Shown piece after piece: positions 14,762-35,898 of a stretch of DNA of 54,473 bases. The notes beneath the pieces are model-generated. The model did no database searches, was not told the DNA's origin, and was given only the letters and a program-made list of their open reading frames with translations. Within the stretch, counting starts at the first letter, position 1. Each line of letters begins with the position of its first letter. Origin of the DNA: Elusimicrobiota bacterium (GTDB lineage: Bacteria; Elusimicrobiota; Elusimicrobia; UBA1565; UBA9628); assembly GCA_038059415.1 (NCBI GenBank), contig JBBTJN010000007.1:1-54473 (forward strand). The letters run 5' to 3'. The position numbers and the translations under genes were made by a program.

Positions 14762-15886
14762 CTAAAGTCGCTGAAGACGTACAGTGTCGGGAGTATCACC
14801 CGTAACAGACGGACAGGAAAAATATTTCGCAGGGTCTATCCCTGCGCTGCGCAGGTCGGCAAAGACCTTCTGCACGCTGACACCTAGGCTGGAGTCGGTC
14901 CGGAATTTGTCCGCAGTGTTGCCGCTGGCGGTATGCAGGCCGATAAGGCGGCCTGTCTGGTCAAAAATGGGCCCTCCGCTTTTGCCGTGGTAAGCGTCGT
15001 TGTCGGAAAGAATGAGTTCTCCGGCGGCGATGCCCGGCTGGTAAATCTCATAGAAGACCGTCTGGCTCACGGAGTTGAGGGTCGCCAGCCAAGCGCTGGT
15101 CCGCAGGTCCGCAGCCTTGCGGCCGTAGGTCTCGACCAAGACCCCTCCGGGAGAAGAGGGCGCATTGTCGTCAGAGCGGAAGGCGGGCCCGGGGAAGCCC
15201 ATGTCCCACAATCGGGAACCCGCAGCCGGGGCGGTGGGTTGCGCCGGCACGCATGGGCTGGGATGATCGGTCTGGGTCTTGAGGATGGCCCAGTCGCCTG
15301 GTGCGATGTGCCGAATCTGTTCGATGAGATTAGGCTGCCTGGCGAGATCCGAAACGTCGGGAGAACTTGCGCGTGGCTTCAGGTATCCCCGGCCCGCAAC
15401 CACTAGGAAGGTCGGATAAGCTTCGGCCCTCATATTTGTGCGAACCGCATCGTAGGGGTTGGCGTCGCTCCCATGCTCAGTGAGCGTGAGCTGGGAGACG
15501 CTTCTGACTTGGGCGCGTTGCATATATGATTTGACGCAATGGGATGCGGTCAGGATATAGCCGCTGCGCGATATATACGTCCCAGTACAGCTTGTGAACC
15601 AGGAGTTAAGTTTAACTACAGACTTTTGGACATCGGCCGAGAACAAGGGTTGGTCTGGGGTCTGTCCCGGCGTGTAGAAGCCGGCGGCCGCGGGCATAAT
15701 GTTCCGTCTGAACCGGTCCCTGGACTCGGCACTCTGCCGGGTTGACTGAATTAAGACCTCTTGGACTTTCTGACTAAAATGGGCGTCTCCTATAACTCTG
15801 GATTCCTGAGCCTGGAGGGGCGCACAAGCCAAGAGCGCACTGATGAGCACGGTGGACATCGTACTGTTGTTTTTTATATTTTCCAT
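14762..15886 (-). CDS. Secreted trypsin-like (S1) serine protease
   Basis: Signal peptide, TASHCV (His) and GKSGGPIF (Ser). Confidence 0.8.
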   Translation of the reverse strand: MENIKNNSTMSTVLISALLACAPLQAQESRVIGDAHFSQKVQEVLIQSTRQSAESRDRFRRNIMPAAAGFYTPGQTPDQPLFSADVQKSVVKLNSWFTSCTGTYISRSGYILTASHCVKSYMQRAQVRSVSQLTLTEHGSDANPYDAVRTNMRAEAYPTFLVVAGRGYLKPRASSPDVSDLARQPNLIEQIRHIAPGDWAILKTQTDHPSPCVPAQPTAPAAGSRLWDMGFPGPAFRSDDNAPSSPGGVLVETYGRKAADLRTSAWLATLNSVSQTVFYEIYQPGIAAGELILSDNDAYHGKSGGPIFDQTGRLIGLHTASGNTADKFRTDSSLGVSVQKVFADLRSAGIDPAKYFSCPSVTGDTPDTVRLQRL

Positions 15887-16285: not shown

Positions 16286-17404
16286 TCAGGTGTTCCGTAG
16301 AGTCGAGTCGATGAAGTTTCTAGGCGTCCAACCTTGCGCCAGTTTCTTTAGGCCGAACTCGTCGAACATGGCGAGACCTGCGCCTACAGCAATTCCCGGT
16401 CCGCCTGTCACCGCGGCACCCACCGCGCTGCCTATGGCGATCTTCATTAGCTTAAAGCCCGTTGTCTCGAAGAAACCTTCCGGTTTCTGGAGAGCGTCGA
16501 GATACACTTTCGTGATGTCCTCAGCCCTTCCAGTCTGGGTAACATTCCAGAGCCACTCCCTGAGACGGACACTGCTTTCACGAGTGCGCAGATCGGGAAG
16601 CGCACTGAAACTTAAGGTGTTTTTTAAGAACGCGTTCTTAAGGCTGGGGACTCGCTCAATCTCCGCAATTCTATTGAACGCATCGCGCAATGCACTTTCG
16701 CGAGGCTCTGAGACGACAATAGCCTGACATACCATCCAAGGACGCTCGTCGTTGAGGAAGTCGTATCCATGCGTCGCGGCAACCTCGGCCTCAAGCGTGT
16801 CACTCGCTAATCCACAGAGTTTCCGGCGATCTTCAATCGGGAGATCTTCTAGTGTCTTGCCGTCGAGCCCGAATACGTCGAGAACATGCTGTTTATACAT
16901 CTCGTGGACCAAGCCGACAACGCGGTGTGAGAGCTTGTCGGACGGCAGTATGGTCCGGTCGGATATTTTCTTCGAGAGAGATGAACGCTCTGCATCGCTG
17001 AGGAGGCCGGGAAACCAATTCAATCCCAGGCGCGCTGATTCCGCTGGATCGCAGTGGGCTGGTGAACTGAGGGCACCGGCTTGAAGGGGCAATATCCCTT
17101 TGCCTCTGAAAGCATCATTGTCGTAGTACGTCACCGTTGGTCGCCAAAGCACGAACTCAATAGCCCCCTGTTCCAGAAGGGATTCGAATCCGCGGATGCC
17201 AAATACTTTAATCAGCTGAGCTGCGACAACATTCTCTCCATAGACTCTGAACGACACTTTGTCCGCGAGCATGAGCAGCTCAGCAGTCGTGCCGATAAGG
17301 TCCATTAGTTCCAGCGTGTAAAGGCGAGTGTCGAGCAGTTCTGTAGTCTTAAGGTACTTCGAAGCAAAGGCATCGTTCCGTTTGACCCAGATAGTCTTCG
17401 GCAT
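16286..17404 (-). CDS. Hypothetical protein with a Gly/Ala-rich hydrophobic C-terminal segment
   Basis: ATG at 17404 is preceded by GAGGG. C-terminal IAIGSAVGAAVTGGPGIAVGAGLAMF is glycine-zipper-like. The gene lies 91 nt downstream of HerA on the same strand. Confidence 0.55.
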   Translation of the reverse strand: MPKTIWVKRNDAFASKYLKTTELLDTRLYTLELMDLIGTTAELLMLADKVSFRVYGENVVAAQLIKVFGIRGFESLLEQGAIEFVLWRPTVTYYDNDAFRGKGILPLQAGALSSPAHCDPAESARLGLNWFPGLLSDAERSSLSKKISDRTILPSDKLSHRVVGLVHEMYKQHVLDVFGLDGKTLEDLPIEDRRKLCGLASDTLEAEVAATHGYDFLNDERPWMVCQAIVVSEPRESALRDAFNRIAEIERVPSLKNAFLKNTLSFSALPDLRTRESSVRLREWLWNVTQTGRAEDITKVYLDALQKPEGFFETTGFKLMKIAIGSAVGAAVTGGPGIAVGAGLAMFDEFGLKKLAQGWTPRNFIDSTLRNT

Positions 17405-17519
17405 GGCTGGCCCTCGATGGTGAGACAAGAAGCTATGCCCGCTCCGGGCGGGATAGGTGCGATCCAGCTAGGATACTTGGTCTCCGCGTTTGCTGCCAGC
17501 CCGTTATGGACAGAGCCTT

Positions 17520-19211
17520 CTAGCGTTCCTGGTCACGCCACCGTTTCACGATGGCGTCCACATCAAGGTCCGTTGGGCCGTCCTTCCACTGCGTATAGAA
17601 ATCCACATCGTCGCTGTTGGGCGTGGGGTTCGGTTTGTCGAACTGAAGTCGAGTCGGCAGTGGAACGGCTTCTCCGAGTACCAGGGCTTCACCCCGGCCT
17701 AAACCTGCCAGTACGCTAACCAAGTCTCCCTCGCTTTCGGGAACAAGGCTACGCACGTAGGCCTGGTCCTCAGGGTTGGTGATCCGCAGGCAGATGAATG
17801 TCCCGCATTGAGCGAGAACAGTATCGGAGACCTCGTGAGGTCGCTGACTGACCACCGCCAAGCCAACACCGTACTTGCGGCCCTCCTTAGCGATCCGTTC
17901 CATAGACTTCCGTGAGCCCGCAAACTGGCTCTCGCTTGCACGGGGGATATAGGCGTGAGCTTCTTCGCACATCAGGAGGATAGGGAACTCACGGTACTTT
18001 GGGTTCCAGTAGTTAAACTCGAACGCCAGCCGGCCAATCTGTGCCGCCACCGTAGGACGAACATCGAATGGCACCGAGGAGAGGTCGATCACGGTGACAG
18101 CTGATTTAGGAGTTCCAAGTCCTACAAAGTCCCGAAGCAGCGTTGCGAGAGATGCGGACCCATTGCGGACCATTGGTTTCAGCAGGAAGTCATAGCGAAC
18201 GTCGTTGAGTTTGCTGTCCAGCCGCATCAAGAAGTTGTCGAAGGCTCCGGTGAGGGGGCCTTTGATGGGCTTCCCAGTGCTCGCGCTGGGCTCTAACCCG
18301 TTCTTGGCCTCAATAGCTGCTCTCAACGCTGTCAGATCAAAATGAACCGGAGTGTCTATCGTTGTTCGTGCCAACCCGAGGCGCTTGCCCTCGGCGAGTC
18401 GCAGGGCTCCTAGTACTTCTCTGAATACCGCCGTCTGATTGTGGGCGCTGAAGTCGGTATGGTCGATTAGCAGATCGCAGAGCTCAGCGTACGTCATCAG
18501 CCAGTAAGGAATCTCAAGCTTGCGAGCATCTACGTGCCGGACGATCGTTTCAGCGAAGGCATAGTGTCGCGTGGCATCTCGTTCCCAGCAGTATTCCCCA
18601 TGAAGATCCAAGATGATTATGTGGGCACGCGGCATGACTGCTACAGTGCGCTGCACAAGGGAGGCGACGGTCCAAGATTTGCCTGACCCGGTCTGCCCCA
18701 GAATCGCAAAGTGCCGGCCAAACAGGTTTGTCGGATCAAGGCACACTTTGAGCGACGGGTGACTCGCAACTGTACCCACCGAGAAGCCTTTCGACTGGAA
18801 GCGTTCGAACATCTTGGCGATATCTAGGGACCCGATCGCGTGCACCTCGGCTCCGGTGGTTGGATACCGGCCGATGCCACGCTCAAACTGTCCATTGGCA
18901 AGTATCGACCCAATAGGCGCCAGCCTCGCTATCCGCTTTGCGTAGGGAAGCCTCGCCGTATCCTCGCCAGGCGTCTCGATCGTAGGTGCCGCGAGAGCTT
19001 CCTGTTCCGTCATGCGAGTCACGATCGCAATGATGTTGATATCGTTTTGGCGTATCGCGACGTAGGACCCAATCTGTCCAACAAGAATGTCCTCGTCACC
19101 GATCGTGATGGTGGGTGTACGCCCCTGGTCGTCTTCGGTCATCGAGGCAGTCATAAGACTGCCCTGCACATCGACGACGTAACCGATTATCGTAGTGGCT
19201 GACTCAGGCAT
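17520..19211 (-). CDS. herA: HerA-like (DUF87) ATPase/helicase of a SIR2-HerA defence pair
   Basis: Walker A GQTGSGKS and Walker B-type blocks IIILDLHGEY and LLMCEEAHAYIP. The start lies 3 nt after the SIR2 stop. Confidence 0.8.
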   Translation of the reverse strand: MPESATTIIGYVVDVQGSLMTASMTEDDQGRTPTITIGDEDILVGQIGSYVAIRQNDINIIAIVTRMTEQEALAAPTIETPGEDTARLPYAKRIARLAPIGSILANGQFERGIGRYPTTGAEVHAIGSLDIAKMFERFQSKGFSVGTVASHPSLKVCLDPTNLFGRHFAILGQTGSGKSWTVASLVQRTVAVMPRAHIIILDLHGEYCWERDATRHYAFAETIVRHVDARKLEIPYWLMTYAELCDLLIDHTDFSAHNQTAVFREVLGALRLAEGKRLGLARTTIDTPVHFDLTALRAAIEAKNGLEPSASTGKPIKGPLTGAFDNFLMRLDSKLNDVRYDFLLKPMVRNGSASLATLLRDFVGLGTPKSAVTVIDLSSVPFDVRPTVAAQIGRLAFEFNYWNPKYREFPILLMCEEAHAYIPRASESQFAGSRKSMERIAKEGRKYGVGLAVVSQRPHEVSDTVLAQCGTFICLRITNPEDQAYVRSLVPESEGDLVSVLAGLGRGEALVLGEAVPLPTRLQFDKPNPTPNSDDVDFYTQWKDGPTDLDVDAIVKRWRDQER

Positions 19212-19214
19212 GGT

Positions 19215-20243
19215 TCAAATCTCCTTGGCCAGGCGCTCGAAGCTCCAGAGATCGGCGTGCCCGGGACCAGTTCGGCCCTTCAACGAGCATTGTGTTTCGG
19301 TGACGATGATTACGTTTGTTTTGGTGCTCCATCGAGCCCAGGCAGCAGTTTCCAGGGCCTTGGTGAAGATCAGCACTGTGAAGTCCGTCCGTGCGAGGGC
19401 GGCCTCGATGACCGAGTTTACATGCTCATCCACGAAAGCGTATCCGATGCACACTAGTCGATTTATGGGGGTGGCGTTGTGCCCTAAACAACCACGAAAC
19501 GTAGACCATAGATTCGAGTATGGTGGGGTCATCGTATCGACAGCCTTCCGACGCTGAGGCGGAATCATGAGCCGTTTGGTGGAGGTGGGTGGGCCAGCAT
19601 CGAATCGAGACCGCCGAATGCCATTGGTCGGGCATTCATACCAGCCGAGTGAACCATGGAGCTTCAATAGATGGAGGGGCTTGACGGTTTCGTCAAACTG
19701 CTTGCCCTTATGTGTTCCTCGTATCCGCCCGACTCGCTCCTCAAACACGGCAGGATCGAAGAAGGAGTTCTCCGAGCCAAGAAAGCCATCGACAATGCGA
19801 ATCCGGGCGTGTGCTGCCGCTCGTTCAATGAGTGGATCATAGTTCAGGCTGAAGATCTTGGCGCACGGGTCAGCTCGCTGAGAGACTCGCCGAACGAACT
19901 CGCTGTGCAAGTCGAGAGAGGGTGTCTTGGTCATTAGCAGCTCTGCTAATGCTGCCGTCACCAGGTGACGATAGGGCGTGTCGTTCGCCCCGCCATCATC
20001 AAGCAAGTCAAGAGCGTGTTCGAGTCCACTCGCGCCGTTAGTTAGCTTGGCTTGGATCTCATCCCGCTTTGTGGTATCCGAGATTCGGTCCTTAATGAGA
20101 TTCCACAGTTGGAACGCAAGAGGGTATCCCGCACCGTTGAGGTATGAGGACCCTGCGCCAAGGAGATAGCCGACACGCTGAGACTTGAGTTGCTGAGCAA
20201 CCTTTGTCTCGAGGTCAGAAATGAAATCGGCTGCGGGGCTCAT
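19215..20243 (-). CDS. SIR2-family protein (SIR2_2 type), defence-associated
   Basis: GAGSS, SLNYDPLIE and KLHGSLGWY motifs. The start is placed at MSPAADF; the ORF is open to 20360, which would remove the promoter region. Confidence 0.8.
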   Translation of the reverse strand: MSPAADFISDLETKVAQQLKSQRVGYLLGAGSSYLNGAGYPLAFQLWNLIKDRISDTTKRDEIQAKLTNGASGLEHALDLLDDGGANDTPYRHLVTAALAELLMTKTPSLDLHSEFVRRVSQRADPCAKIFSLNYDPLIERAAAHARIRIVDGFLGSENSFFDPAVFEERVGRIRGTHKGKQFDETVKPLHLLKLHGSLGWYECPTNGIRRSRFDAGPPTSTKRLMIPPQRRKAVDTMTPPYSNLWSTFRGCLGHNATPINRLVCIGYAFVDEHVNSVIEAALARTDFTVLIFTKALETAAWARWSTKTNVIIVTETQCSLKGRTGPGHADLWSFERLAKEI

Positions 20244-20375
20244 TTTGTCGTGGCATCGAGGTGAGATTCTATCATTTACAATATTTTCGAGATTCGTCCG
20301 ACGAGAGCGGAGCGTCGCTATCGTATACATGGTGACAACAGCGCCGTCAAACGAGTACAATCTTCCCTAGAGAAG

Positions 20376-20594
20376 ATGGCTACCCAAATTCAATTGCCTC
20401 ACCCCACGGGCAAGGATTTCTACACCACGGTTCAAGTGGCAGAAGTTCTCGGGTACACGATTCAACATACTCGGTGGTTGATACGGACGAACCGGCTGAA
20501 CGCTGTTAAGGTCGGAAGAGACTGGTTAATTCCGCAGGCTGGAGTAGCGAGCTATCTTGCTGCCAGGGCCTCGGACAAACAGCCACGCCATTGA
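20376..20594 (+). CDS. Excisionase-family (HTH_17) DNA-binding protein, possible R-M controller
   Basis: YTTVQVAEVLGYTIQHTRWLIRTNRLNAVKVGRDWLIPQAGVASYL. Confidence 0.7.
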   Translation: MATQIQLPHPTGKDFYTTVQVAEVLGYTIQHTRWLIRTNRLNAVKVGRDWLIPQAGVASYLAARASDKQPRH

Positions 20595-20604
20595 GGAGAG
20601 AACT

Positions 20605-21570
20605 ATGACTACCACTACTGTCCGACCTCGTCCCAAGACCAAGGCCCCGACCAACCAGCTCGTGTTGCAGTCACCGACCCATGCGCCGGCACCAGTCCTG
20701 GCTGCTGGTTTACAGAAAGAGGTGAAGCCGAAAGGGGTTGTCCATCCGCGTAATCCGCTGAATGATCTGACTGCAACGGAGTGGATTCCCGAGACGGTGT
20801 CTGTTTGGAACCAGCGTGGACTTGGGGCGAATCACGCTGATGCTCAGATTGAGCGTCAACACCCGGCGCCGTTTTCTTTTACTGACGTTGCGCGCTTAGT
20901 CCGGTTCTTCACGAAGAAAGGACAGATTGTATTGGATCCCTTTGTTGGTGTCGGCTCTACGCTGAAAGCCTGTGCTCTTGAACAACGTCAGGGAATAGGT
21001 TTCGAGTTGAACCCTAAGTACGCTGAGCTGGCAAAGAAGCGTCTCCAGCTCGAAGTGCCGGATAAAGCTGCCGTCGCCCAGCAGAAAGTGGTTAAGGGCG
21101 ACTGCCGTACGCTTGTCGCTGCTTTACCCGAGAACAGCATTGATTTCGTGGTAACGAGCCCACCGTACGCCGCGATCCTTCACAAGGAGGATCACAAGGT
21201 CCGACAGGAGAGAACGGACCGGGGCTTGGATACGCGCTACAGCGACAACAAGAAGGACTTCGGCAATATCAAAGACTATCCGAAGTTTCTTGATCAGCTC
21301 GCTGAACTCCTTGGCGGATGCGCGAAGGCGCTTAAGCCGAAGAAGTATATGGCCGTTGTTGTTGGAGACTTCCGCGAGAAGTCAAAGTACGTGATGTTCC
21401 ATGCAGACTTGGCGAATGCCCTCTCGAAGTATTCCCTGGGTGTTCGTGGCATCACTGTGCTCTATCAGCGGCACAAACGGGTGTTCCCGTATGGATATCC
21501 TTACGCCTTTGTTCCGAACATGCACCATCAATTCATTGTGATCCTGCAAAATGAGAAGACAGCAAAGTAA
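20605..21570 (+). CDS. DNA methyltransferase (N4-C/N6-A type), motif order I then IV
   Basis: HPAPFSF..VLDPFVGVGST (AdoMet motif) precedes VVTSPPY (catalytic motif). GAGGAGAG RBS. Confidence 0.85.
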   Translation: MTTTTVRPRPKTKAPTNQLVLQSPTHAPAPVLAAGLQKEVKPKGVVHPRNPLNDLTATEWIPETVSVWNQRGLGANHADAQIERQHPAPFSFTDVARLVRFFTKKGQIVLDPFVGVGSTLKACALEQRQGIGFELNPKYAELAKKRLQLEVPDKAAVAQQKVVKGDCRTLVAALPENSIDFVVTSPPYAAILHKEDHKVRQERTDRGLDTRYSDNKKDFGNIKDYPKFLDQLAELLGGCAKALKPKKYMAVVVGDFREKSKYVMFHADLANALSKYSLGVRGITVLYQRHKRVFPYGYPYAFVPNMHHQFIVILQNEKTAK

Positions 21571-22357
21571 GCCCATCGGAAGCGGCATAGTTGTTGGTGA
21601 CTGCATCGAGGAGCTTCGGAAGCTCCCGGATGCCTGCACTAATTTGATTATTGCCGACCCTCCTTACAATCTCAACAAGGACTTTGGGCTTTGGAAAGAA
21701 TCAGAGCATCGGCACGAATGGTTCGATTGGTGTAAGAAGTGGCTGACGGAGTGCAAGCGGATCCTTCGCCCCGAGGGCAACATCTTTGTCTACGGCATTC
21801 ATCACCATATCTGTTGGATCCAGTGTTTTCTCTACGAGCAGGGCCTCGACTATAGACGCCTTATTGTCTGGAACTATGAGAATGGGTTTTCCGGCTACAC
21901 CCGCAGCCTTTCAGCGCACTATGAGCCGCTTCTGTGGTTTTCCGCTGGCCCGAAGTATATCTTTCATCCGATTCGTGAGCCTTATAAGAGCCTGGAACGC
22001 CTCAAGTACAAGGTGATCAAGAACGGGAAGACTTGGCAACCGAACCCCGAGGGGCGGATGGCCGGCGACGTGTGGAGATTCCCTACTCTTGCGGGGAGAC
22101 GTTTCCGAGATGAGAAGGTGGCTCATCCGACGCAGAAGCCACTCTCTATCTCCCTGCGAATTGTAAAGCACTTTTCAAATCCCGGAGATTTGGTCGTCGT
22201 TCCGTTTGCGGGAAGCGGAACCGAGTGCGTCGCGGCCAAGCAACTGGGGCGTGAGTACCTGGGATTCGACCTTAACTCCAAGTATGCTGAGATCGCCCGA
22301 GAGCGCATCCGAACGGCCATCGCTGCACCTGCAGACAAAGCTACTTCGCTGCTTTAA
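21551..22357 (+). CDS. DNA methyltransferase (N4-C/N6-A type, beta class), motif order IV then I
   Basis: IIADPPYNL lies near the N-terminus. HPTQKPLSI..VVVPFAGSGTE lies near the C-terminus. Confidence 0.88.
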   Translation: MRRQQSKPIGSGIVVGDCIEELRKLPDACTNLIIADPPYNLNKDFGLWKESEHRHEWFDWCKKWLTECKRILRPEGNIFVYGIHHHICWIQCFLYEQGLDYRRLIVWNYENGFSGYTRSLSAHYEPLLWFSAGPKYIFHPIREPYKSLERLKYKVIKNGKTWQPNPEGRMAGDVWRFPTLAGRRFRDEKVAHPTQKPLSISLRIVKHFSNPGDLVVVPFAGSGTECVAAKQLGREYLGFDLNSKYAEIARERIRTAIAAPADKATSLL

Positions 22358-23474
22358 GCCAACCCCTGTAGCCTTTCCCATCTTCCGGCGTTCTCCCAAG
22401 CGTTGCGCTTAGGCCTGTTGCGATTGACTGGTTGTCGGCATCGGCATAGAAGCTCACTACGCCGCCGAGCTTCAACTTGTGCCGCTCCCAGACAAGGAGG
22501 AGCAGCGCTCCAACCGTGAGAGATTGGATTCGAATCCCAAGTATTTCCTGAACATCCTTCACGACGCGCCAGTATTCCGACCTCGCATTGGGAAAAGAAA
22601 GAGTCACGATAGCGGGCGTGATCTCCTCAAGCTTCCCCTTGTGCCGGGAGACTAACACGGCGCAGCTATCCAGTATGCTTCGAGGCGAATCAAGAGTGGC
22701 TCCCTCGGAGAACTCCACTTCTGCGGTGCCCACCGATGTCGAATGGAAGGCCGCATCCATCCGAACGTTCGTGTCGCCGTGGCGACGCATCTCCCATGAG
22801 ATACCAAGCGCCCTCATTAGATTTCTGACGAGGAGATTCGGGAATTGTGCGGATATGCCGCGAGGCGGGTGAGTCAGGTGTTCGTAGATTGCCTCTAAGA
22901 AGTTCTCGCCGCGCTCGACGATCGTTCCTTTGACGGCAGCTTTAGCGAATACCCGCGCAATCTCGTCCGTGTTCTTCTTCTCAACTGCTCGAGTAGAAAG
23001 AACGAATCCCTCGTTCGGCCTGTCGTTCACGACTGCGCCTTTTGTAGTCAACGTGATAGCGGAGACAGGGCAGCGAACCACACAGAGGCCGCATGTTATG
23101 CATGACGGCGCGGATATCATCGGGACACCCGTGCGCTCATCAAGCTCCATGGCATTCGTTGGGCAAACATCTGGCGTCGTATCCGCTGGGAATGCCGCTA
23201 GGGCAGCTGAGGTTTTGTCCTCTGCGGTGTATCTCATGCACGGGGTATCAGGACAATGGATACAGGAGCCCGCGACTTCGATCCCGCCCTTGAATTTAAT
23301 GCGCGACGGCACGCCCAGCCCGCCATGAATAACCTCAAGCGGGACGCTAGTGAGGTCCTTGCCCTTAATGAGTGCCGTGGACCGCTTAAGGATTTTCAAT
23401 TTCGAGCAGTCCTCGCAGGTGCAGGATGGCGTCCTTGTCCGGAGCGCGTCCAAACAGGACCTTCGATACTGCAA
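22341..23474 (-). CDS. 4Fe-4S ferredoxin-domain protein with an uncharacterised C-terminal domain, co-oriented with the endonuclease
   Basis: CIHCPDTPC..DVCP and CITCGLCVVRCP cluster motifs, followed by about 230 aa without a motif I recognise. The start is uncertain because the ORF overlaps the upstream gene by 89 nt. Confidence 0.6.
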   Translation of the reverse strand: MQYRRSCLDALRTRTPSCTCEDCSKLKILKRSTALIKGKDLTSVPLEVIHGGLGVPSRIKFKGGIEVAGSCIHCPDTPCMRYTAEDKTSAALAAFPADTTPDVCPTNAMELDERTGVPMISAPSCITCGLCVVRCPVSAITLTTKGAVVNDRPNEGFVLSTRAVEKKNTDEIARVFAKAAVKGTIVERGENFLEAIYEHLTHPPRGISAQFPNLLVRNLMRALGISWEMRRHGDTNVRMDAAFHSTSVGTAEVEFSEGATLDSPRSILDSCAVLVSRHKGKLEEITPAIVTLSFPNARSEYWRVVKDVQEILGIRIQSLTVGALLLLVWERHKLKLGGVVSFYADADNQSIATGLSATLGRTPEDGKGYRGWLKAAK

Positions 23475-25086
23475 GGCGAATCAATGTTCGGAAGTCGATC
23501 ACGCCAATTGAGAGTTTGTAGGTCGAATGGATATCAGAGATCAGCGAAGAGACTTCGGAGCGGTCATTCGGGGGCTCGTACCCTACCGCCAAGCTGGCTG
23601 CAGTTCGCGTCGTTGGAACATAGCGGCGGGCGAGGAGGACGACCTTATTCTCGAGAGCTTGTCGGACCCCTTTCACAGAAAGGAACTCTTCCTCTCCCGG
23701 CGATTTGATCTCAATCGGGACCGACTCTTTCGCGTCCTTGATGAGTGCGTCCATTCGCTGATAGTTCACGCCCGCTCGAGAGCACGTGCAGTCGAAGCCC
23801 AGAATCTTAAAGAGGTCTGCTACCGCTGGGTAGAAAGTGGCCTTCCCGGCGCCTCTAAATGATTCGAATATGGTGTCCGCAATTTTGTCGATGCCGAGCT
23901 TCCGGTCGGCCTCTTTGATTTGGGCAGCGATTGGCGAGCTGTCCACGGGAGCCCTGCTCTTGTCAGTGCTAAGCCGAACCTTGGCTATCAGCGGGGTACG
24001 CGCTGATCCTGCGGCAGCATCTTTGGCAACTCCAAGGCCGGGGCTAGTGCTGCGCGTAGAACCTTCTGAATAGGGCGGGAAAGCTTTGCGGAGAAGATCT
24101 GGCGCACACTCTTGGAAGGGTGAGAATAAGAGGCGGCTAGCATCTCTGACTTTGAGTTTCGCCGTCAAAATTCCGCAGGTCGCGGCAAGTGCTGCGGGCT
24201 TCTCGGCAACGTCCGCCAACGAGAAGCCTGAAATCGCCATCATCTGGTAGAAGGAGAGTTTTATGAAGGCAAGGGCCTCGGGTTCTCGCGCAGACCCAAG
24301 ATCCGAGCAGCGCACGTCAGTTGCATTTTGAACCCTTTGGGCAGCGGCATCGCCGCTTCCCGTGAGGACATATTCGACTCCCCGCCCGTCTCTAGCCGGC
24401 ATTGCCCAGCCCGCCCAGCGCAACACCCCGAGAGGGAACCTCGTGTAGTTCTGGAGAGTGTTGAGCTGGATCTTAATCTCAGAGGCGAACTTATTTACGG
24501 CCGCATCTGTCCCGTTCGTTTCACGAAGGCGTCGAATGCGCTTGATTGCGTGCGCAACCTCTTCATCATCTCGATCATCCTCCAACTGCAGGGGCCCAAG
24601 AATGATCTCGTCACGAGAGATTTTCCCATCCAGCTCTCGCGCCATGCGCAGGATAGTCGCTATCGGCCGGACTTTGTGAGCGCCCTTCACCTCAACGTGG
24701 GGGTTCGGGTAGCTGATGTGGAGAATGCACTCGCGAATTAGCTTCTCCAGGATGCCGGGGTCCATTGCGATGTGGGCGCCCAGATAGGTGAAGTTGAATT
24801 CCTGTCGATTGTCCGGAAGGCTATGAATCCAGCCCAGGATGCGGAAGAGTTCGGAATACATCTTTGACTGGTTGAAGAGGGGATCGCGGCTACGGTCCTT
24901 ACGCGTGCTTCGGAGCAGGGCTTCGTCGCCGATGTGCCCGGACGAGGTCGCCAGGTTGCTATCCACGAGTGCTTGAGACATGTCGTCAAGCGTGAAGCTG
25001 GGCAGCGTTCGGAGCGCCTGGAAAAGCGCCTTGAATATTCTAACGAACGCAGCAATGTCCGAGCCGGGATTCGGGAAGCGCAGCAC
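23386..25086 (-). CDS. Putative restriction endonuclease (large type II/IIS-like, possibly AlwI-family)
   Basis: Candidate PD-(D/E)xK catalytic motif MDALIKDAKESVPIEIKSPG near the C-terminus. 566 aa, convergent with two methyltransferase genes. Confidence 0.55.
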   Translation of the reverse strand: MLRFPNPGSDIAAFVRIFKALFQALRTLPSFTLDDMSQALVDSNLATSSGHIGDEALLRSTRKDRSRDPLFNQSKMYSELFRILGWIHSLPDNRQEFNFTYLGAHIAMDPGILEKLIRECILHISYPNPHVEVKGAHKVRPIATILRMARELDGKISRDEIILGPLQLEDDRDDEEVAHAIKRIRRLRETNGTDAAVNKFASEIKIQLNTLQNYTRFPLGVLRWAGWAMPARDGRGVEYVLTGSGDAAAQRVQNATDVRCSDLGSAREPEALAFIKLSFYQMMAISGFSLADVAEKPAALAATCGILTAKLKVRDASRLLFSPFQECAPDLLRKAFPPYSEGSTRSTSPGLGVAKDAAAGSARTPLIAKVRLSTDKSRAPVDSSPIAAQIKEADRKLGIDKIADTIFESFRGAGKATFYPAVADLFKILGFDCTCSRAGVNYQRMDALIKDAKESVPIEIKSPGEEEFLSVKGVRQALENKVVLLARRYVPTTRTAASLAVGYEPPNDRSEVSSLISDIHSTYKLSIGVIDFRTLIRLAVSKVLFGRAPDKDAILHLRGLLEIENP

Positions 25087-25154: not shown

Positions 25155-25685
25155 ATGCCTAAGCTAGTGAAGGCTAAGGTTTCAAACGAGCGAAAGAACC
25201 TGCACCGGCTTGCCGGTGAGTTCTTGGTGGCCTCGCGCTTAACGCAACGGGGCTTCATGGTCACGCTGCAGTGGGGCAGTACCATCAGCTACGACATTCT
25301 GGTTTTCGATAAGCAAGGGAATGTCGCGTTCATAGAAGTGAAGTCGAGCGCATCCTACCATCGGCGGTGGGTGCTCCAAAGCAAATACGCTCGTCCAGAG
25401 ACGGACTCGATTCCTCTCGCCAAGCGATTCATTTGCTGCGTTGACTTATCATCGATGGGACGTGAGCCTGACATCTACGTCTTTCCCGCAGCCCTCGTCG
25501 CGAAGGGGCTTAGCTATTACTTCAATGGCAAGTACCCAAATAGCTTGAGCTATCACCTTTCGCTCGATTTCAAACCACAAGGACAAACGAAGAATCCGCA
25601 CGTAAAAACCGTTGGCGAACATATCGACGCAGACTCATACCGAGAGAACTTCAAGGCACTCGGTGTCACACCCCTGGCAACGTAG
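25155..25685 (+). CDS. Small PD-(D/E)xK nuclease-fold protein (Hjc/restriction-endonuclease-like)
   Basis: YDILVFDKQGNVAFIEVKSS gives a D..E-V-K arrangement. 176 aa. Confidence 0.45.
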   Translation: MPKLVKAKVSNERKNLHRLAGEFLVASRLTQRGFMVTLQWGSTISYDILVFDKQGNVAFIEVKSSASYHRRWVLQSKYARPETDSIPLAKRFICCVDLSSMGREPDIYVFPAALVAKGLSYYFNGKYPNSLSYHLSLDFKPQGQTKNPHVKTVGEHIDADSYRENFKALGVTPLAT

Positions 25686-26232: not shown

Positions 26233-27165
26233 ATGCCGGGTGCCTACGCTCATATCACTCTAGCGAACCTTCTTAAAGAACCCGCACGGCTTGAGGCCAT
26301 TCCCGCCTTCCCAGTAGAGGCTATCTCCGCAGTTCTGGACTACTTTAAGTTCTGCGAGTTGGGAGCTGTAAGCCCAGACTACCCCTACCTGTCGGTAGGA
26401 GACAAGAAGGCCGAGGCCTGGGCCAACCTCATGCATTATACGCGTACCGGTGCGATGCTCCAGGTCGGAATTGGGAAACTGCGGGGTCTGCCCAAGGAAA
26501 CGATGCACAAAGGATTGGCCTGGTTGCTGGGCTACGCGGCTCACGTGGCAACCGATGTTTCAATCCACCCGGTCGTCAATCTCAAAGTTGGTCGCTACGA
26601 AGACAACAAGAGGATGCACCGAGTCTGTGAGCTGAACCAGGACGCCCATATCTTCCAACGGATGAAGCTCGGGGGCGTCGGTCTCTCCGAGCACCTGGAT
26701 TCAGGGATCGGTGGGTGCTGCAATCCTCGGAACAAGAAGCAGCTCGATACGGACATCGTTGATCTCTGGAAGAGCATTCTTAAAGAGGTCCACCCTGCCG
26801 AGTTTAAGAAGAACCCTCCGGATTTCAACAAGTGGCACAAACTCTTTAAGTTGATGGTCGATGATGTCGCGGAAGAGGGGAATAAGCTGATGCCCTTTGC
26901 CCGGCACCTGGGCGTCAACTGCGGGCTGACTTATCCAACGGCGGACGAGATTGACCGCCAATTCATCGACGGACTTGCTGTTCCCGGCGGTGCCCGCGAG
27001 GGATATGATTCGATCTTCGACCGGACGATTGGCAACGTCGGCGGAGTCTGGCAGCTTGTTGCGTCCGGGGTCCTGCAAGGCGATGAGAAGTATGTGGCCC
27101 GGCTCGGAACATGGAATCTTGATACGGGAAAGGACGAGAACGACCGAATGGTCTTCTGGAGCTGA
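26233..27165 (+). CDS. Zinc-dependent phospholipase C-like family protein (no signal peptide seen)
   Basis: His/Asp-rich blocks AYAHI, SPDYPY, LMHY, GYAAHVATDVSIHP and HRVCELNQDAH. GAAGGAG RBS. Confidence 0.55.
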   Translation: MPGAYAHITLANLLKEPARLEAIPAFPVEAISAVLDYFKFCELGAVSPDYPYLSVGDKKAEAWANLMHYTRTGAMLQVGIGKLRGLPKETMHKGLAWLLGYAAHVATDVSIHPVVNLKVGRYEDNKRMHRVCELNQDAHIFQRMKLGGVGLSEHLDSGIGGCCNPRNKKQLDTDIVDLWKSILKEVHPAEFKKNPPDFNKWHKLFKLMVDDVAEEGNKLMPFARHLGVNCGLTYPTADEIDRQFIDGLAVPGGAREGYDSIFDRTIGNVGGVWQLVASGVLQGDEKYVARLGTWNLDTGKDENDRMVFWS

Positions 27166-29198: not shown

Positions 29199-29215
29199 CG
29201 TATAGATGTTTTGTG
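29199..29215 (+). promoter_or_regulatory. CTCGTATAGA box 7 nt upstream of the ligase GTG (candidate leaderless promoter)
   Basis: CGTATA at 29199-29204 and GTG at 29213. Confidence 0.35.
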
Positions 29216-30280
29216 GATCGCGCCCTCCTCGATCAGCTGGCCCCAATGTTGGCCACCGACCTGCGCGACCTTCCCAGTGCAGATCAAGACAGAGTATGGA
29301 ACACCCCGGACTTCGTGGCCGAAGAGAAGCTCAACGGTATTCGGGCGCTCCTTCATATAGGACAATCCGAGTCCCGACTGACTACCCGCGTCAGGAGCAA
29401 GCGTACGGGTCTCTACCTCGAGCGTAGCGACAACTTCCCGCACCTTCGGGATCTCCCGGTGAGCTTCCTCGAAGGCACCGTTTTGGACGGAGAGCTTCTG
29501 CTCGACAAGGCACGCCTCTTCACCGGCACGACTTGGGCTCATGGATCGTTATCGTGCACGATGGCGGTTTGCAGTAGCTCACCGGCGCGGGCTGTTGAGA
29601 TCCAAGGGCGAGAGGGGAAAGCCGACTACTGCGTCTTTGACATCATCCGGGATCGTGGCGCAGCGGTTGAGGGTTTCCCGCTGTCGGAGCGCCGCCGTCG
29701 GCTGGAAAGCGTATTCGTCGAGCTGCGCAAGCGGGGAATCTCCCTGGAATCGTTGAGGCTCGTGCCGCAGGTCCAGGAAAAAAAGCGGGCGTTCTACGCA
29801 CAGGTCCTTCGAGACGGCGGGGAGGGCGTGATGCTCAAGCACCGCGACGGTCTGTACCAGCACGCGGGCAGGTCTCCCCGCGTCTTGAAGGCAAAGCGGT
29901 CTCTAACGGTGGATGGGTTCATCATCGGCTCCACGGCTGGCAAGAACGGCAACGCGGGCTTGGTCGGGAGTTTGCGGATCGGGGTCTATGATGCCGATAC
30001 CGGAGAGATCCGCGAGATAGCCGGCGTTGCGCCCTATGACCTCAGCCGCGGGCCCAAGAAGAGTAATCTCCGCCGTGCGATGACGGTTCTGCTCAGTGGG
30101 GCGCCGGAGCTTGCGCCTGGGTTCCAGGGTCGTGTTGTGGAGATCGAAGCCTTCTGCTGGAACAAGAACGCTCGGCTCGTCCATGCCAAGCTGGCCCGGT
30201 TTCGGCCGGATAAGGACAAGGCCGATTGCCGCGTTGACTTCTCGTCGCTGGGGGTGGCGGATGCCGTGGACCCCGGGTGA
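29213..30280 (+). CDS. ATP-dependent DNA ligase
   Basis: Adenylation motif EEKLNGIR, N-terminal LAPMLAT, plus GEGVMLK and LKAK blocks. An alternative start is the Met of PMLAT at 29246. Confidence 0.85.
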   Translation: MDRALLDQLAPMLATDLRDLPSADQDRVWNTPDFVAEEKLNGIRALLHIGQSESRLTTRVRSKRTGLYLERSDNFPHLRDLPVSFLEGTVLDGELLLDKARLFTGTTWAHGSLSCTMAVCSSSPARAVEIQGREGKADYCVFDIIRDRGAAVEGFPLSERRRRLESVFVELRKRGISLESLRLVPQVQEKKRAFYAQVLRDGGEGVMLKHRDGLYQHAGRSPRVLKAKRSLTVDGFIIGSTAGKNGNAGLVGSLRIGVYDADTGEIREIAGVAPYDLSRGPKKSNLRRAMTVLLSGAPELAPGFQGRVVEIEAFCWNKNARLVHAKLARFRPDKDKADCRVDFSSLGVADAVDPG

Positions 30281-35867: not shown

Positions 35868-35898
35868 TGCTCGATTCTGCGGCAGCAGCTCGGTCCAT

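What the first reader, a model, noticed from the sequence alone, without database searches (positions are those of the whole stretch)
20376..25086. R-M module with two motif-permuted methyltransferases and a 4Fe-4S protein downstream of the endonuclease
An HTH gene and two methyltransferases face a 566-aa putative endonuclease with an ..D..EIK motif. The first methyltransferase has the order FxGxG-type motif then TSPPY. The second has DPPY then FxGxG-type motif. Two methyltransferases usually indicate an asymmetric (type IIS) site. The endonuclease is followed on the same strand by a 377-aa protein whose N-terminus carries two ferredoxin-type clusters (CIHCPDTPC..CP and CITCGLCVVRCP), fused to an uncharacterised ~230-aa domain. 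Some AlwI-family type IIS enzymes are heterodimers of a large nicking subunit and a small second-strand subunit. An Fe-S-bearing second subunit or redox- or DNA-charge-sensing accessory would be unusual. The Fe-S ORF overlaps the endonuclease 3' end by up to 89 nt and the second methyltransferase convergently by 17 nt.
Basis: partly seen in the sequence, partly recalled or inferred. Interest (0 to 1): 0.7.

Follow-up and report, generated by a model that had tools for sequence, protein, structure and literature searches.

The report
Two-subunit restriction enzyme with iron-sulfur domain
This is a restriction-modification gene cassette whose DNA-cutting enzyme appears to be built from a large FokI/BspD6I-like subunit and a small second nuclease subunit that, unusually, carries a ferredoxin-type domain with eight invariant cysteines; the cassette is widespread in bacteria but unannotated in every library searched.

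Summary

**Genes in window 20376-25086**
- An HTH_17 gene.
- A permuted SPPY methyltransferase, M1. Its true start is 20605 (321 aa).
- A beta-class DPPY methyltransferase, M2.
- Convergent with these, a 566-aa protein and a 352-aa Fe-S protein. The Fe-S protein is not 377 aa: it starts at TTG 23399 and overlaps the 566-aa gene by 14 nt.

**What the two convergent proteins are**
- The 566-aa protein matches nothing by sequence in Pfam, NCBIfam, PADLOC, PHROGs or PDB sequences.
- Its AlphaFold model matches only Nt.BspD6I and FokI, over the full length (E 1e-9 to 6e-7).
- The Fe-S protein's C-terminal domain has a FokI/BspD6I-type nuclease fold.
- That domain is a paralogue of the 566-aa protein's catalytic domain (hhalign 97-98%, E 1e-11). 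This is the BspD6I large/small subunit arrangement.

**Conservation**
- The four-gene core is conserved in all 77 evaluable loci out of 80 species genomes from many phyla.
- 70 loci have the eight-cysteine domain on the small subunit. Seven have a 211-232-aa small subunit without it.

**Conclusion**
This is most likely a heterodimeric type IIS restriction-modification system, and a new variant because the second-strand subunit carries an Fe-S domain. The recognition site, cleavage and the role of the clusters are untested.

The parts
20332..20377 (+). Candidate promoter (GTGACA-18-TACAAT) and a 9+9-nt palindrome (ATCTTCCCT/AGAGAAGAT) overlapping the HTH start codon. Possibly an operator. Weak evidence.
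   Evidence: The promoter-like count in the region is not above the shuffled controls (4 found against 2.3 +/- 1.4).
20376..20594 (+). 72-aa HTH_17/excisionase-type DNA-binding protein, the presumed transcriptional controller of the cassette.
   Evidence: Pfam HTH_17 1e-8 and TIGR01764 1e-8. A small HTH gene sits upstream of M1 in many other loci, or is fused to M1 in Oceanobacillus, but it comes from non-orthologous HTH families.
20605..21570 (+). M1: 321-aa circularly permuted N6_N4 DNA methyltransferase. FVGVGS (residue 113) precedes SPPY (residue 185). Predicted N4-cytosine methyltransferase.
   Evidence: PF01555 85 bits in two stretches and PADLOC MTase_II 3e-33. Motif positions. SPPY with FxGxG first in 73 of 75 homologues.
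21551..22357 (+). M2: 268-aa beta-class N6_N4 DNA methyltransferase. DPPY (residue 36) precedes FAGSGT (residue 219). Predicted N6-adenine methyltransferase.
   Evidence: PF01555 173 bits, NF008572 3.7e-42, PADLOC MTase_II 1e-56. DPPY first in 74 of 77 homologues.
22341..23399 (-). Small subunit, 352 aa: an N-terminal beta segment, a ferredoxin-type domain with eight cysteines, and a C-terminal PD-(D/E)XK nuclease domain.
   Evidence: Start and length. AlphaFold2 model pLDDT 92, pTM 0.92. Foldseek hits to FokI, Nt.BspD6I, HindIII and the WOR5 Fe-S subunit.
23070..23264 (-). Ferredoxin-type motifs of the small subunit: C46, C49, C54, C79-P and C100, C103, C106, C110-P.
   Evidence: All 8 Cys are invariant in 37 homologues at 30-47% identity. 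All 69 long small subunits scanned from the genome loci carry the eight-cysteine pattern: 60 match it exactly, and 9 differ only in the residue after a fourth Cys. Fer4-family hits sit just below or near the Pfam cut-offs. PDB sequence hits are to di- and poly-ferredoxin subunits.
22344..22922 (-). Nuclease domain of the small subunit (residues 160-352) with R213-M-D215 ... E227-V-E229, P-N-A-R-S-E275-Y and an invariant C-terminal K352.
   Evidence: hhalign against the large subunit's catalytic domain gives probability 97-98%, E 1.5e-11 to 7.7e-13. Invariant columns. R.D...E.E and a terminal Lys in 74 of 75 small subunits.
23386..25086 (-). Large subunit, 566 aa: FokI/Nt.BspD6I-like type IIS endonuclease or nickase.
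   Evidence: AlphaFold2 model pLDDT 88. The top 11 Foldseek hits are only Nt.BspD6I and FokI, E 8.5e-9 to 5.6e-7. At least 828 homologue clusters, all unnamed or 'hypothetical'.
24067..25086 (-). DNA-recognition region of the large subunit (residues 1-340): helical and winged-helix subdomains.
   Evidence: The full-length Foldseek alignments to FokI and Nt.BspD6I span more than 600 columns. Weaker hits are to winged-helix DNA-binding proteins. The region is highly conserved, with motifs RFPNPGSD, NQSKMYSE and NYTRFP.
23389..23904 (-). Catalytic PD-(D/E)XK domain of the large subunit (residues 395-566): D446, E459-I-K461, then R475-Q-A-L-E479-N-K.
   Evidence: These residues are invariant in 42 homologues. 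Coordinates. Residues 343-362 ahead of the domain are a low-confidence linker.

Best explanation
Window 20376-25086 encodes a heterodimeric type IIS (type IIT, 'Class III') restriction-modification system.

**Large subunit.** The 566-aa subunit has the FokI/Nt.BspD6I architecture: N-terminal recognition subdomains, a flexible linker and a C-terminal PD-(D/E)XK domain (D446, E459, K461). By analogy it binds an asymmetric site as a monomer and cuts one strand.

**Small subunit.** The gene immediately downstream, translationally coupled by a 14-nt overlap, encodes a 352-aa subunit. Its C-terminal domain is a paralogue of the large subunit's catalytic domain. Its acidic triad is D215, E227, E229, a BamHI-like ExE in place of ExK. 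By analogy with ss.BspD6I it docks on the DNA-bound large subunit and cuts the second strand.

**Host protection.** Two methyltransferases each modify one strand of the asymmetric site. M1 (SPPY, permuted) is probably an N4-cytosine enzyme. M2 (DPPY, beta class) is probably an N6-adenine enzyme. The small HTH protein probably controls expression.

**What is new.** The small subunit carries an N-terminal ferredoxin-type domain with eight invariant cysteines, inferred to hold two [4Fe-4S] clusters. I think it most likely serves as a rigid structural and assembly module packed on the nuclease domain, so that an intact holo-domain is needed for productive second-strand cleavage.

**Status of each step.**
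- Shown: the gene content, the folds, the paralogy and the conserved linkage.
- Inferred: DNA cleavage, strand assignment, methylation chemistry, cluster binding and the role of the Fe-S domain.
For: - **Large-subunit fold.** The only significant PDB matches are Nt.BspD6I (E 8.5e-9) and FokI (E 2e-7), over more than 600 aligned columns.
- **Small-subunit fold.** FokI (1.5e-4), Nt.BspD6I (1.4e-3) and HindIII for the C-terminal domain. The WOR5 Fe-S subunit (8e-4, probability 1.0) for the N-terminal domain. BFVD hits are phage 'restriction endonuclease' proteins.
- **Paralogy of the two catalytic domains.** hhalign probability 97-98%, E 1.5e-11 to 7.7e-13. It aligns RMD215 with RMD446, E227-x-E229 with E459-x-K461, and PNARSEY with PNDRSEV.
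- **Same arrangement as BspD6I/BstNBI.** There the small subunit is encoded by the adjacent ORF and resembles the large subunit's catalytic domain (PMC3017599, section 7).
- **Conserved linkage.** 7 of 7 contexts. All 77 evaluable loci among 80 species genomes have a small-subunit gene directly downstream. M1 has SPPY in 74 of 75 and M2 has DPPY in 75 of 77.
- **Cysteines.** Eight invariant in 37 homologues, and present in all 69 long small subunits scanned.
- **ExE can be catalytic.** BamHI uses D94/E111/E113, and the D94N/E113K mutant is cleavage-deficient (PMC8845596 abstract).
- **Defence-island context.** A SIR2-HerA pair lies next door. GmrSD, Mrr and SIR2 genes flank other loci.
Against: - No sequence-level match to any characterised restriction enzyme family. 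Pfam RE_AlwI and FokI models give no hit even at E<=1. A PDB profile search gives no hit at E<=10.
- TM-scores of the full-length fold matches are low (0.25-0.33), because the domain arrangements differ.
- The small subunit lacks the canonical Lys (E229), so it could be non-catalytic.
- Seven of 77 loci have small subunits without the Fe-S domain, in at least two clades. One phage-borne cassette is the same. So the domain is not required for the core mechanism.
- The ferredoxin core is acidic, with mean net charge -5.5. This argues against direct DNA-backbone binding and leaves its role open.
- No recognition site, methylation data or cleavage data exist here.
- The metal content cannot be read from sequence.
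Confidence: 0.75

Rival explanations
1. The Fe-S domain is a regulatory switch rather than a passive scaffold. Cluster oxidation, reduction or loss (from oxygen, oxidative stress, iron starvation or DNA-mediated charge transfer) would disable or release the small subunit. The system would then toggle between double-strand cutting and mere nicking. This accepts the heterodimeric type IIS frame and differs only in the role of the clusters.
For: - The domain is a bona fide electron-transfer-type fold: eight invariant Cys, an acidic surface typical of ferredoxins, and best matches to redox-enzyme Fe-S subunits.
- It has been kept without exception across one large clade spanning many phyla.
- In Class III enzymes the small subunit is active only in complex, so any effect on docking would gate the second cut (PMC3017599).
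Against: - No redox partner gene is conserved in the cassette.
- Fe-S-bearing forms occur in aerobes (Oceanobacillus, Polynucleobacter, Marinobacter, Paracoccus) and in strict anaerobes (Clostridia, Dehalococcoidia). Fe-S-less forms also occur in both. So there is no lifestyle correlation.
- Ferredoxin-like di-cluster domains with purely structural roles exist, for example ABCE1, which is among the PDB hits. That role is from my own knowledge.
Confidence: 0.2
2. The small subunit is catalytically dead because ExK has been replaced by ExE. It acts only as an activator, dimerisation partner or inhibitor of the large subunit, which cuts both strands itself through transient FokI-like dimerisation.
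For: - The canonical Lys is replaced by an invariant Glu (E229) in every small subunit.
- FokI-type enzymes can cut both strands by dimerising their catalytic domains (PMC2673415 abstract).
Against: - D215, E227 and E229 are invariant or nearly so in Fe-S and Fe-S-less forms alike. So are R213, N271, R273 and E275. That pattern indicates a preserved active site rather than a decayed one.
- BamHI shows that ExE sites are active.
- The characterised analogues BspD6I, BtsI and BsrDI all use the small subunit's own active site.
Confidence: 0.1
3. The Fe-S protein is an unrelated metabolic ferredoxin that merely lies next to a restriction-modification system. Alternatively, the cassette is not a restriction system at all, for example a nickase used by a mobile element.
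For: - Public annotation calls homologues '4Fe-4S binding protein' or 'ferredoxin'.
- No defence-system model matches the two restriction genes.
Against: - The C-terminal domain has a nuclease fold and is paralogous to the neighbouring endonuclease.
- Adjacency is strict across phyla: 77 of 77 evaluable loci, usually overlapping or abutting the large gene.
- Two strand-complementary methyltransferases always accompany the pair.
Confidence: 0.03

Closest known systems
R.BspD6I / R.BstNBI: heterodimeric type IIS enzyme made of the nickase Nt.BspD6I and the small subunit ss.BspD6I ('Class III' of Chan, Stoddard and Xu; PMC3017599)
   Same: - The large subunit of about 570-600 aa gives the best full-length fold match.
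- The small subunit is encoded by the next ORF downstream.
- The small subunit is homologous to the large subunit's catalytic domain.
- The short-clade small subunits (211-232 aa) are close in size to a bare catalytic domain.
   Different: - No detectable sequence similarity: Pfam RE_AlwI is not hit, and a PDB profile search finds nothing.
- The small subunit carries an extra N-terminal segment of about 150 aa with an eight-cysteine ferredoxin-type domain.
- Its active site reads D...ExE rather than D...ExK.
- It ends in an invariant Lys.
FokI (monomeric type IIS enzyme that dimerises through its cleavage domain)
   Same: Both have three-part recognition subdomains followed by a C-terminal PD-(D/E)XK cleavage domain. 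FokI is the second-best full-length fold match for the large subunit, and the best match for the small subunit's nuclease domain.
   Different: FokI has no separate small subunit. There is no sequence similarity. FokI's methyltransferase is a single fused protein rather than two separate genes (from my own knowledge).
Bacterial-type 2x[4Fe-4S] ferredoxin domains, for example the WOR5 beta subunit (6x1o_B), FwdF, NuoI and RnfB, and the non-redox ferredoxin-like domain of ABCE1
   Same: The CxxCxxxxC...CP and CxxCxxCxxxCP motifs are the same. The fold match to the WOR5 Fe-S subunit has probability 1.0. Sequence hits are to di-cluster ferredoxin subunits and to ABCE1.
   Different: - The domain is fused to a nuclease and embedded in a restriction-modification cassette.
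- A family-specific insertion of about 20 residues, with a conserved F-P-x-D motif, lies between the third and fourth Cys of the first motif.
- No redox partner is encoded nearby.
Single-[4Fe-4S] PD-(D/E)XK nucleases (Cas4, AddB, Dna2, Exo5)
   Same: A PD-(D/E)XK nuclease combined with iron-sulfur cysteines (from my own knowledge; see also PMC5704561, listed).
   Different: Those enzymes have one cluster held by four Cys that staple the nuclease domain itself. Here a separate ferredoxin-type module with eight Cys precedes the nuclease domain.

Membership tests
Heterodimeric 'Class III' type IIS/IIT restriction endonucleases (BspD6I/BstNBI type) | Large subunit with FokI-like recognition subdomains and one C-terminal PD-(D/E)XK site | tested here: met
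   AlphaFold2 model. The top 11 Foldseek PDB hits are only Nt.BspD6I and FokI over the full length. D446/E459/K461 are invariant.
Heterodimeric 'Class III' type IIS/IIT restriction endonucleases (BspD6I/BstNBI type) | Small subunit encoded by the adjacent ORF and homologous to the large subunit's catalytic domain | tested here: met
   14-nt overlap with the large gene. hhalign probability 97-98%, E 1.5e-11. Adjacent in all 77 evaluable loci.
Heterodimeric 'Class III' type IIS/IIT restriction endonucleases (BspD6I/BstNBI type) | Large subunit alone nicks one strand; both subunits are needed for double-strand cleavage at a fixed offset from an asymmetric site | not testable with these tools
   Needs biochemistry. 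The two non-identical methyltransferases are consistent with an asymmetric site.
Pfam RE_AlwI (PF09491) and FokI sequence families | Significant match to the family HMM | tested here: not met
   The large subunit and its two halves have no Pfam hit except one chance-level match to an unrelated domain (DDT, E 0.093, N-terminal half) at E<=1. A PDB profile search finds nothing at E<=10.
PD-(D/E)XK nuclease superfamily (small subunit) | Restriction-endonuclease-like fold with a D...(D/E)xK catalytic motif | tested here: inconclusive
   The fold is met. The motif is D215...E227-x-E229, with Glu in place of Lys. It is invariant and BamHI-like, but activity is unproven.
2x[4Fe-4S] bacterial-type ferredoxin domain | Two Cys motifs (CxxCxxC...CP type) giving eight ligands in a ferredoxin fold | tested here: met
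   C46, C49, C54, C79 and C100, C103, C106, C110 are invariant. The fold match to the WOR5 Fe-S subunit has probability 1.0.
2x[4Fe-4S] bacterial-type ferredoxin domain | Score above the curated Pfam or NCBIfam cut-off | tested here: inconclusive
   In the window protein, Fer4_7 scores 26.4 bits against a cut-off of 27, and Fer4 scores 20.7 against 21.1. Many homologues carry precomputed Fer4 hits.
2x[4Fe-4S] bacterial-type ferredoxin domain | Actual binding of two [4Fe-4S] clusters | not testable with these tools
   Needs anaerobic purification with UV-visible or EPR spectroscopy and iron/sulfide analysis.
N6_N4 DNA methyltransferases (PF01555) | Match above the Pfam cut-off, with the catalytic (D/S)PPY motif and the FxGxG AdoMet-binding motif | tested here: met
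   M1 scores 85 bits, with FVGVGS then SPPY. M2 scores 173 bits, with DPPY then FAGSGT. The target bases (m4C and m6A) are inferred from the motifs only.

The most novel reading that the evidence does not exclude
The di-cluster ferredoxin domain makes restriction conditional. The redox state or integrity of the clusters (oxygen, oxidative stress, iron supply or DNA-mediated charge transfer) would decide whether the small subunit can engage. The same enzyme would then switch between a harmless or repairable nick and a lethal double-strand break. This would be the first redox-gated or iron-gated restriction endonuclease.
Probability: 0.2. Interest if true: 0.85.

Novelty: new variant of a known kind. 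Interest (0 to 1): 0.62.

Why it matters
- **No precedent found.** The literature searches here found no restriction endonuclease described with an iron-sulfur ferredoxin domain, and I know of none. The catalytic and metal repertoire described for type II enzymes is PD-(D/E)XK, HNH, GIY-YIG, PLD and half-pipe, with structural zinc.
- **Large and uncharacterised.** The family has at least 828 large-subunit clusters at 90% identity, about 350 small-subunit clusters at 50% identity, and is present in 118 species-representative genomes. No family library searched here matches the two restriction subunits, apart from ferredoxin-type hits to the small subunit's N-terminal domain. The names the sources give are 'hypothetical protein' or 'ferredoxin'.
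- **Practical value.** It would add a new source of type IIS enzymes and natural strand-specific nickases.
- **Conceptual value.** Nature has run a control experiment, with Fe-S-bearing and Fe-S-less small subunits on the same chassis. That makes the question 'what is an Fe-S cluster doing on a nuclease?' directly testable.

Tried and rejected
- **Sequence searches of the 566-aa protein.** Pfam, NCBIfam, PADLOC, PHROGs and PDB sequences, with the single sequence and with a 42-sequence profile, found nothing. Domain-wise Pfam at E<=1 gave only one chance-level hit to an unrelated domain (DDT, E 0.093).
- **Plasmid collection.** tblastn found no match. The phage collection gave one hit, a Fe-S-less cassette in Clostridium phage CWou-2020b.
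- **First search with the whole Fe-S protein.** It was swamped by ferredoxins: only the 8000 candidates sharing most words with the query were scored, and 42 family members were found. Searching the C-terminal domain alone gave a cleaner picture.
- **A docking feature on the large subunit.** I looked for an insertion or clade-specific feature that might dock the Fe-S domain. There was only a 6-residue linker difference and five conservative column changes, so no docking site could be inferred.
- **Iterated HMM search for orthologues of the HTH gene.** It failed, finding 1 of 80 loci. The reason is that the regulator slot is filled by different HTH families.
- **Literature.** Five full-text searches for an Fe-S or ferredoxin domain in restriction enzymes found no description.
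- **DNA binding by the ferredoxin core.** I considered this and consider it unlikely, because the core is acidic.
- **PADLOC hits to mad1 and mad2.** I considered assignment to the MADS system and rejected it. The hits are weak: mad1 has E 0.009, and the mad2 match is generic methyltransferase similarity.

Full report
**1. Observation**

On the plus strand:
- A 72-aa HTH_17/excisionase-type protein at 20376-20594 (Pfam 1e-8).
- M1, an N6_N4 methyltransferase. It matches the Pfam model in two stretches because it is circularly permuted. FVGVGS lies at residue 113 and SPPY at residue 185.
- M2 at 21551-22357, a canonical beta-class N6_N4 methyltransferase (173 bits). DPPY lies at residue 36 and FAGSGT at residue 219.

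On the minus strand, convergent with these:
- A 566-aa ORF at 23386-25086.
- Directly downstream of it, an ORF with the two cysteine motifs CIHCPDTPC...CP and CITCGLCVVRCP.

Three details need correction:
- M1 most likely starts at ATG 20605, behind a GGAGAG site, giving 321 aa.
- The Fe-S protein starts at TTG 23399 and is 352 aa. Its N-terminus, MKILKRS, aligns with the N-termini of all homologues, and the public gene call agrees.
- Its overlap with the 566-aa gene is therefore 14 nt, typical of translational coupling, rather than 89 nt. The 17-nt tail-to-tail overlap with M2 is as stated.

**2. The 566-aa protein**

Sequence methods are blind to it. There is no hit in Pfam, NCBIfam, PADLOC, PHROGs or PDB sequences. 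This holds even with a 42-sequence profile at E<=10 or with its halves at E<=1, apart from one chance-level Pfam match (DDT domain, E 0.093) for the N-terminal half.

It nevertheless has at least 828 homologue clusters at 90% identity, none carrying an informative name. The family is strongly conserved. Its N-terminal motifs are RFPNPGSD, NQSKMYSE and NYTRFP. Its C-terminal signature is GVNYQRxD446A ... PIE459-I-K461SPGEE ... RQALENK, a textbook PD-(D/E)XK motif.

An AlphaFold2 model built on that alignment is confident: mean pLDDT 88, with one disordered linker at residues 343-362. Against the PDB, its eleven significant Foldseek matches are exclusively the nickase Nt.BspD6I (best E 8.5e-9) and FokI (2e-7). 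The alignments span more than 600 columns, and the twelfth hit has E 0.12. TM-scores are low (0.25-0.33), as expected for multi-domain proteins whose domains are arranged differently. The specificity of the hit list is the stronger evidence.

The protein therefore has the type IIS architecture: recognition subdomains, a linker and one cleavage domain.

**3. The Fe-S protein**

A 37-sequence alignment at 30-47% identity shows all eight cysteines invariant: C46, C49, C54, C79 and C100, C103, C106, C110. It also shows an equally conserved C-terminal half: R206, G208, D209, N211, R213, D215, E227, E229, R240, R252, N271, R273, E275, D282, W304 and the very last residue, K352.

The AlphaFold2 model is very confident (pLDDT 92, pTM 0.92), so the two halves pack into one body. 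Foldseek separates them:
- The N-terminal part matches the Fe-S subunit of WOR5 (probability 1.0).
- The C-terminal part matches FokI (E 1.5e-4), Nt.BspD6I (1.4e-3), HindIII, Cdn1/Card1 and Mus81. All are PD-(D/E)XK nucleases.

In the viral structure library the top named hits are phage 'restriction endonuclease' proteins.

A profile-profile comparison of this C-terminal domain with the catalytic domain of the 566-aa family gives probability 97-98% and E 1.5e-11 (local) to 7.7e-13 (global). It aligns motif on motif:
- RMD215 with RMD446.
- E227-V-E229 with E459-I-K461.
- SPRSILD with VRQALEN.
- PNARSEY with PNDRSEV.

The small protein is thus a paralogue of its neighbour's cleavage domain. This is the relationship described for the heterodimeric type IIS enzyme BspD6I/BstNBI. 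There the small subunit is encoded by the adjacent ORF, resembles the large subunit's catalytic domain, and is active only in complex, while the large subunit alone is a nickase (PMC3017599, section 7).

**4. Linkage and distribution**

All seven genomic contexts looked up by exact protein identity show the same core: large gene, small gene, M2 and M1, usually with a small HTH gene. The hosts were Oceanobacillus massiliensis, Dehalococcoidia and Chloroflexia genomes assembled from metagenomes, and groundwater and other metagenomes.

A scan of one genome per species in GTDB (a database with one representative genome per bacterial and archaeal species) found 118 species with a large-subunit homologue, and 80 loci were fetched. 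The hosts include Chloroflexota, Bacillota, Pseudomonadota, Verrucomicrobiota, Planctomycetota, Poribacteria, Bacteroidota, Actinomycetota, Saccharibacteria, Melainabacteria and Prochlorococcus.

- **Small subunit:** three loci end too early to judge. All 77 others have a small-subunit gene abutting or overlapping the end of the large gene.
- **M1:** SPPY was found in 74 of 75 homologues, with FxGxG confirmed ahead of it in 73.
- **M2:** DPPY was found in 75 of 77, confirmed ahead of FxGxG in 74.
- **Gene order:** it varies. The methyltransferases are either convergent downstream or co-linear upstream, but the content does not change.
- **Family size:** a search of 1.84 billion cluster representatives with the small subunit's nuclease domain alone found 348 clusters at E<=1e-3. 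Most are 330-370 aa with the domain at residues ~155-350, which means they carry the N-terminal extension.

**5. The Fe-S domain is usual but not universal**

- Seventy of the 77 loci have a small subunit with the eight-cysteine pattern. One of them, L024, is cut off by the contig end, so only its N-terminal part could be seen.
- Six have a 211-215-aa small subunit with no such domain: two Saccharibacteria, Veillonella parvula, Aliidiomarina, and two Clostridia-type genomes assembled from metagenomes.
- These six form a single clade in a neighbour-joining tree of the large subunits.
- A Prochlorococcus locus has a 232-aa Fe-S-less small subunit in a different part of the tree, so the domain was lost or gained at least twice.
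- Clostridium phage CWou-2020b carries a complete Fe-S-less cassette, annotated only as 'hypothetical protein' for both restriction genes.
- The short forms keep R-x-D ... E-x-E, PN-R-(S/T)-(D/E)-Y and the terminal Lys.

The catalytic module is therefore common to all members, and the ferredoxin module is an accretion that one large clade has kept without exception. I found no insertion in the large subunits that tracks the presence of the Fe-S domain. Presence or absence of the domain does not follow an aerobic or anaerobic lifestyle.

**6. Mechanism**

Best-supported model:
1. The large subunit binds an asymmetric site and cuts one strand with D446/E459/K461.
2. The small subunit docks through the paralogous domain and cuts the other strand with D215/E227/E229.
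3. M1 (SPPY, probably N4-cytosine) and M2 (DPPY, probably N6-adenine) each protect one strand.
4. The HTH protein regulates expression.

The ExE variant is not a sign of inactivity in itself. BamHI uses D94/E111/E113, and the E113K change contributes to a cleavage-dead mutant (PMC8845596 abstract). These residues are also invariant here.

*The HTH regulator.* In other loci this slot is filled by MerR/HTH_17, Cro/C1-type or HTH_59 proteins, or the HTH is fused to M1. That behaviour fits an exchangeable controller.

*The Fe-S domain.* I favour a structural and assembly role, for these reasons:
- The domain packs tightly on the nuclease domain (pTM 0.92).
- No redox partner is conserved in the cassette.
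- The ferredoxin core is acidic, with mean net charge -5.5. This argues against DNA-backbone binding.
- ABCE1, which appears among the sequence hits, is a precedent for a structural di-cluster domain. That is from my own knowledge.

A regulatory role remains open and is the more exciting reading. Because the small subunit acts only in complex, any cluster-dependent change in docking would switch the enzyme between nicking and double-strand cutting.

The gene content, folds, paralogy and linkage are shown. Everything about activity, site, methylated bases, metal content and the role of the clusters is inferred.

**7. Comparison with what is known**

The system works like BspD6I/BstNBI. It meets the two testable architectural criteria of that class, but fails sequence membership in the Pfam AlwI and FokI families.

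It differs in four ways:
- The Fe-S domain.
- The ExE site.
- The invariant C-terminal Lys.
- Its pair of separate, motif-permuted methyltransferases.

Five full-text literature searches found no description of an Fe-S or ferredoxin domain in a restriction enzyme. REBASE could not be consulted.

I classify the finding as a new variant of a known kind. It is also a large family that none of the libraries searched here recognises.

**8. Context**

The window comes from a 65-kb groundwater metagenome contig. The cassette sits in a stretch of lower G+C, about 15-37 kb. A SIR2-HerA defence pair lies beside it. Other nuclease and ligase genes lie nearby. This is consistent with a defence island.

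Noticed in passing
window 17520-20360 (-), and 16286-17428 (-): A SIR2 (381 aa; PADLOC SIR2 2.5e-44) and HerA (563 aa; PADLOC HerA 7.7e-149) anti-phage pair lies immediately upstream of the cassette. It is followed on the same strand by a 380-aa ORF with no hit in Pfam, NCBIfam or PADLOC (PHROGs not searched). The restriction-modification module is therefore part of a defence island.
   Followed up: partly
window 25155-25685 (+): A 176-aa ORF is transcribed divergently from the large subunit. It has weak NOV_C (1.6e-4) and PDDEXK_5 (2.7e-3) hits, so it may be a small stand-alone nuclease. It is not conserved next to the cassette in other species.
   Followed up: partly
window 22344-22346 (K352), and the small subunits of L009-L088: The last residue of the small subunit is Lys in 74 of 75 homologues, in Fe-S and Fe-S-less forms alike. 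The canonical active-site Lys is replaced by Glu. The terminal Lys might reach an active site, either its own or the partner's. This is unexplained.
   Followed up: partly
L040 6598-7296 (Prochlorococcus sp. AG-347-K18): A 232-aa small subunit without any Fe-S domain, in a different clade from the six other short forms. This indicates a second, independent absence of the domain, here in an organism of iron-poor waters.
   Followed up: partly
L091 2-1545 (15-kb contig, coverage about 5): A 99.2%-identical copy of the large-subunit gene carries several 1-2-nt deletions, all within short runs of G or C. These break it into 205-, 249- and 59-aa pieces, while the small subunit, M1 and M2 are intact. 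This is either decay of the restriction gene or low-coverage assembly error.
   Followed up: partly
L092 (Clostridium phage CWou-2020b, CP063968.1, record 6714-11285): A phage or plasmid-prophage of Clostridium botulinum carries a complete co-linear cassette: HTH, M1, M2, a 563-aa large subunit and a 214-aa Fe-S-less small subunit. Both restriction genes are annotated as hypothetical proteins.
   Followed up: partly
upstream of M1 in L018, L023-L025, L027-L029, L031, L032, L034, L036, L038, L039, L043, L055, L066, L071, L074, L076 and L082: The small regulator gene ahead of M1 belongs to different, non-orthologous HTH families in different lineages: MerR/HTH_17, Cro/C1 HTH_26/HTH_3/HTH_31, and HTH_59. 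In Oceanobacillus it is fused to M1.
   Followed up: partly
window 20332-20377: A promoter-like site (GTGACA-18-TACAAT, 10 of 12 matches) and a 9+9-nt palindrome lie over the HTH start codon. Public gene calls skipped the 72-aa HTH ORF altogether (L089, L090).
   Followed up: no
window about 15000-37000: G+C is 0.52-0.60 here against 0.62-0.71 in the flanks. The stretch also encodes a trypsin-like peptidase (14762-15886), a Zn-dependent phospholipase C (26233-27165), an ATP-dependent DNA ligase (29213-30280), a HEAT-repeat protein (34260-35867) and an S1/P1 nuclease (35851-36792). It is probably a horizontally acquired island.
   Followed up: no
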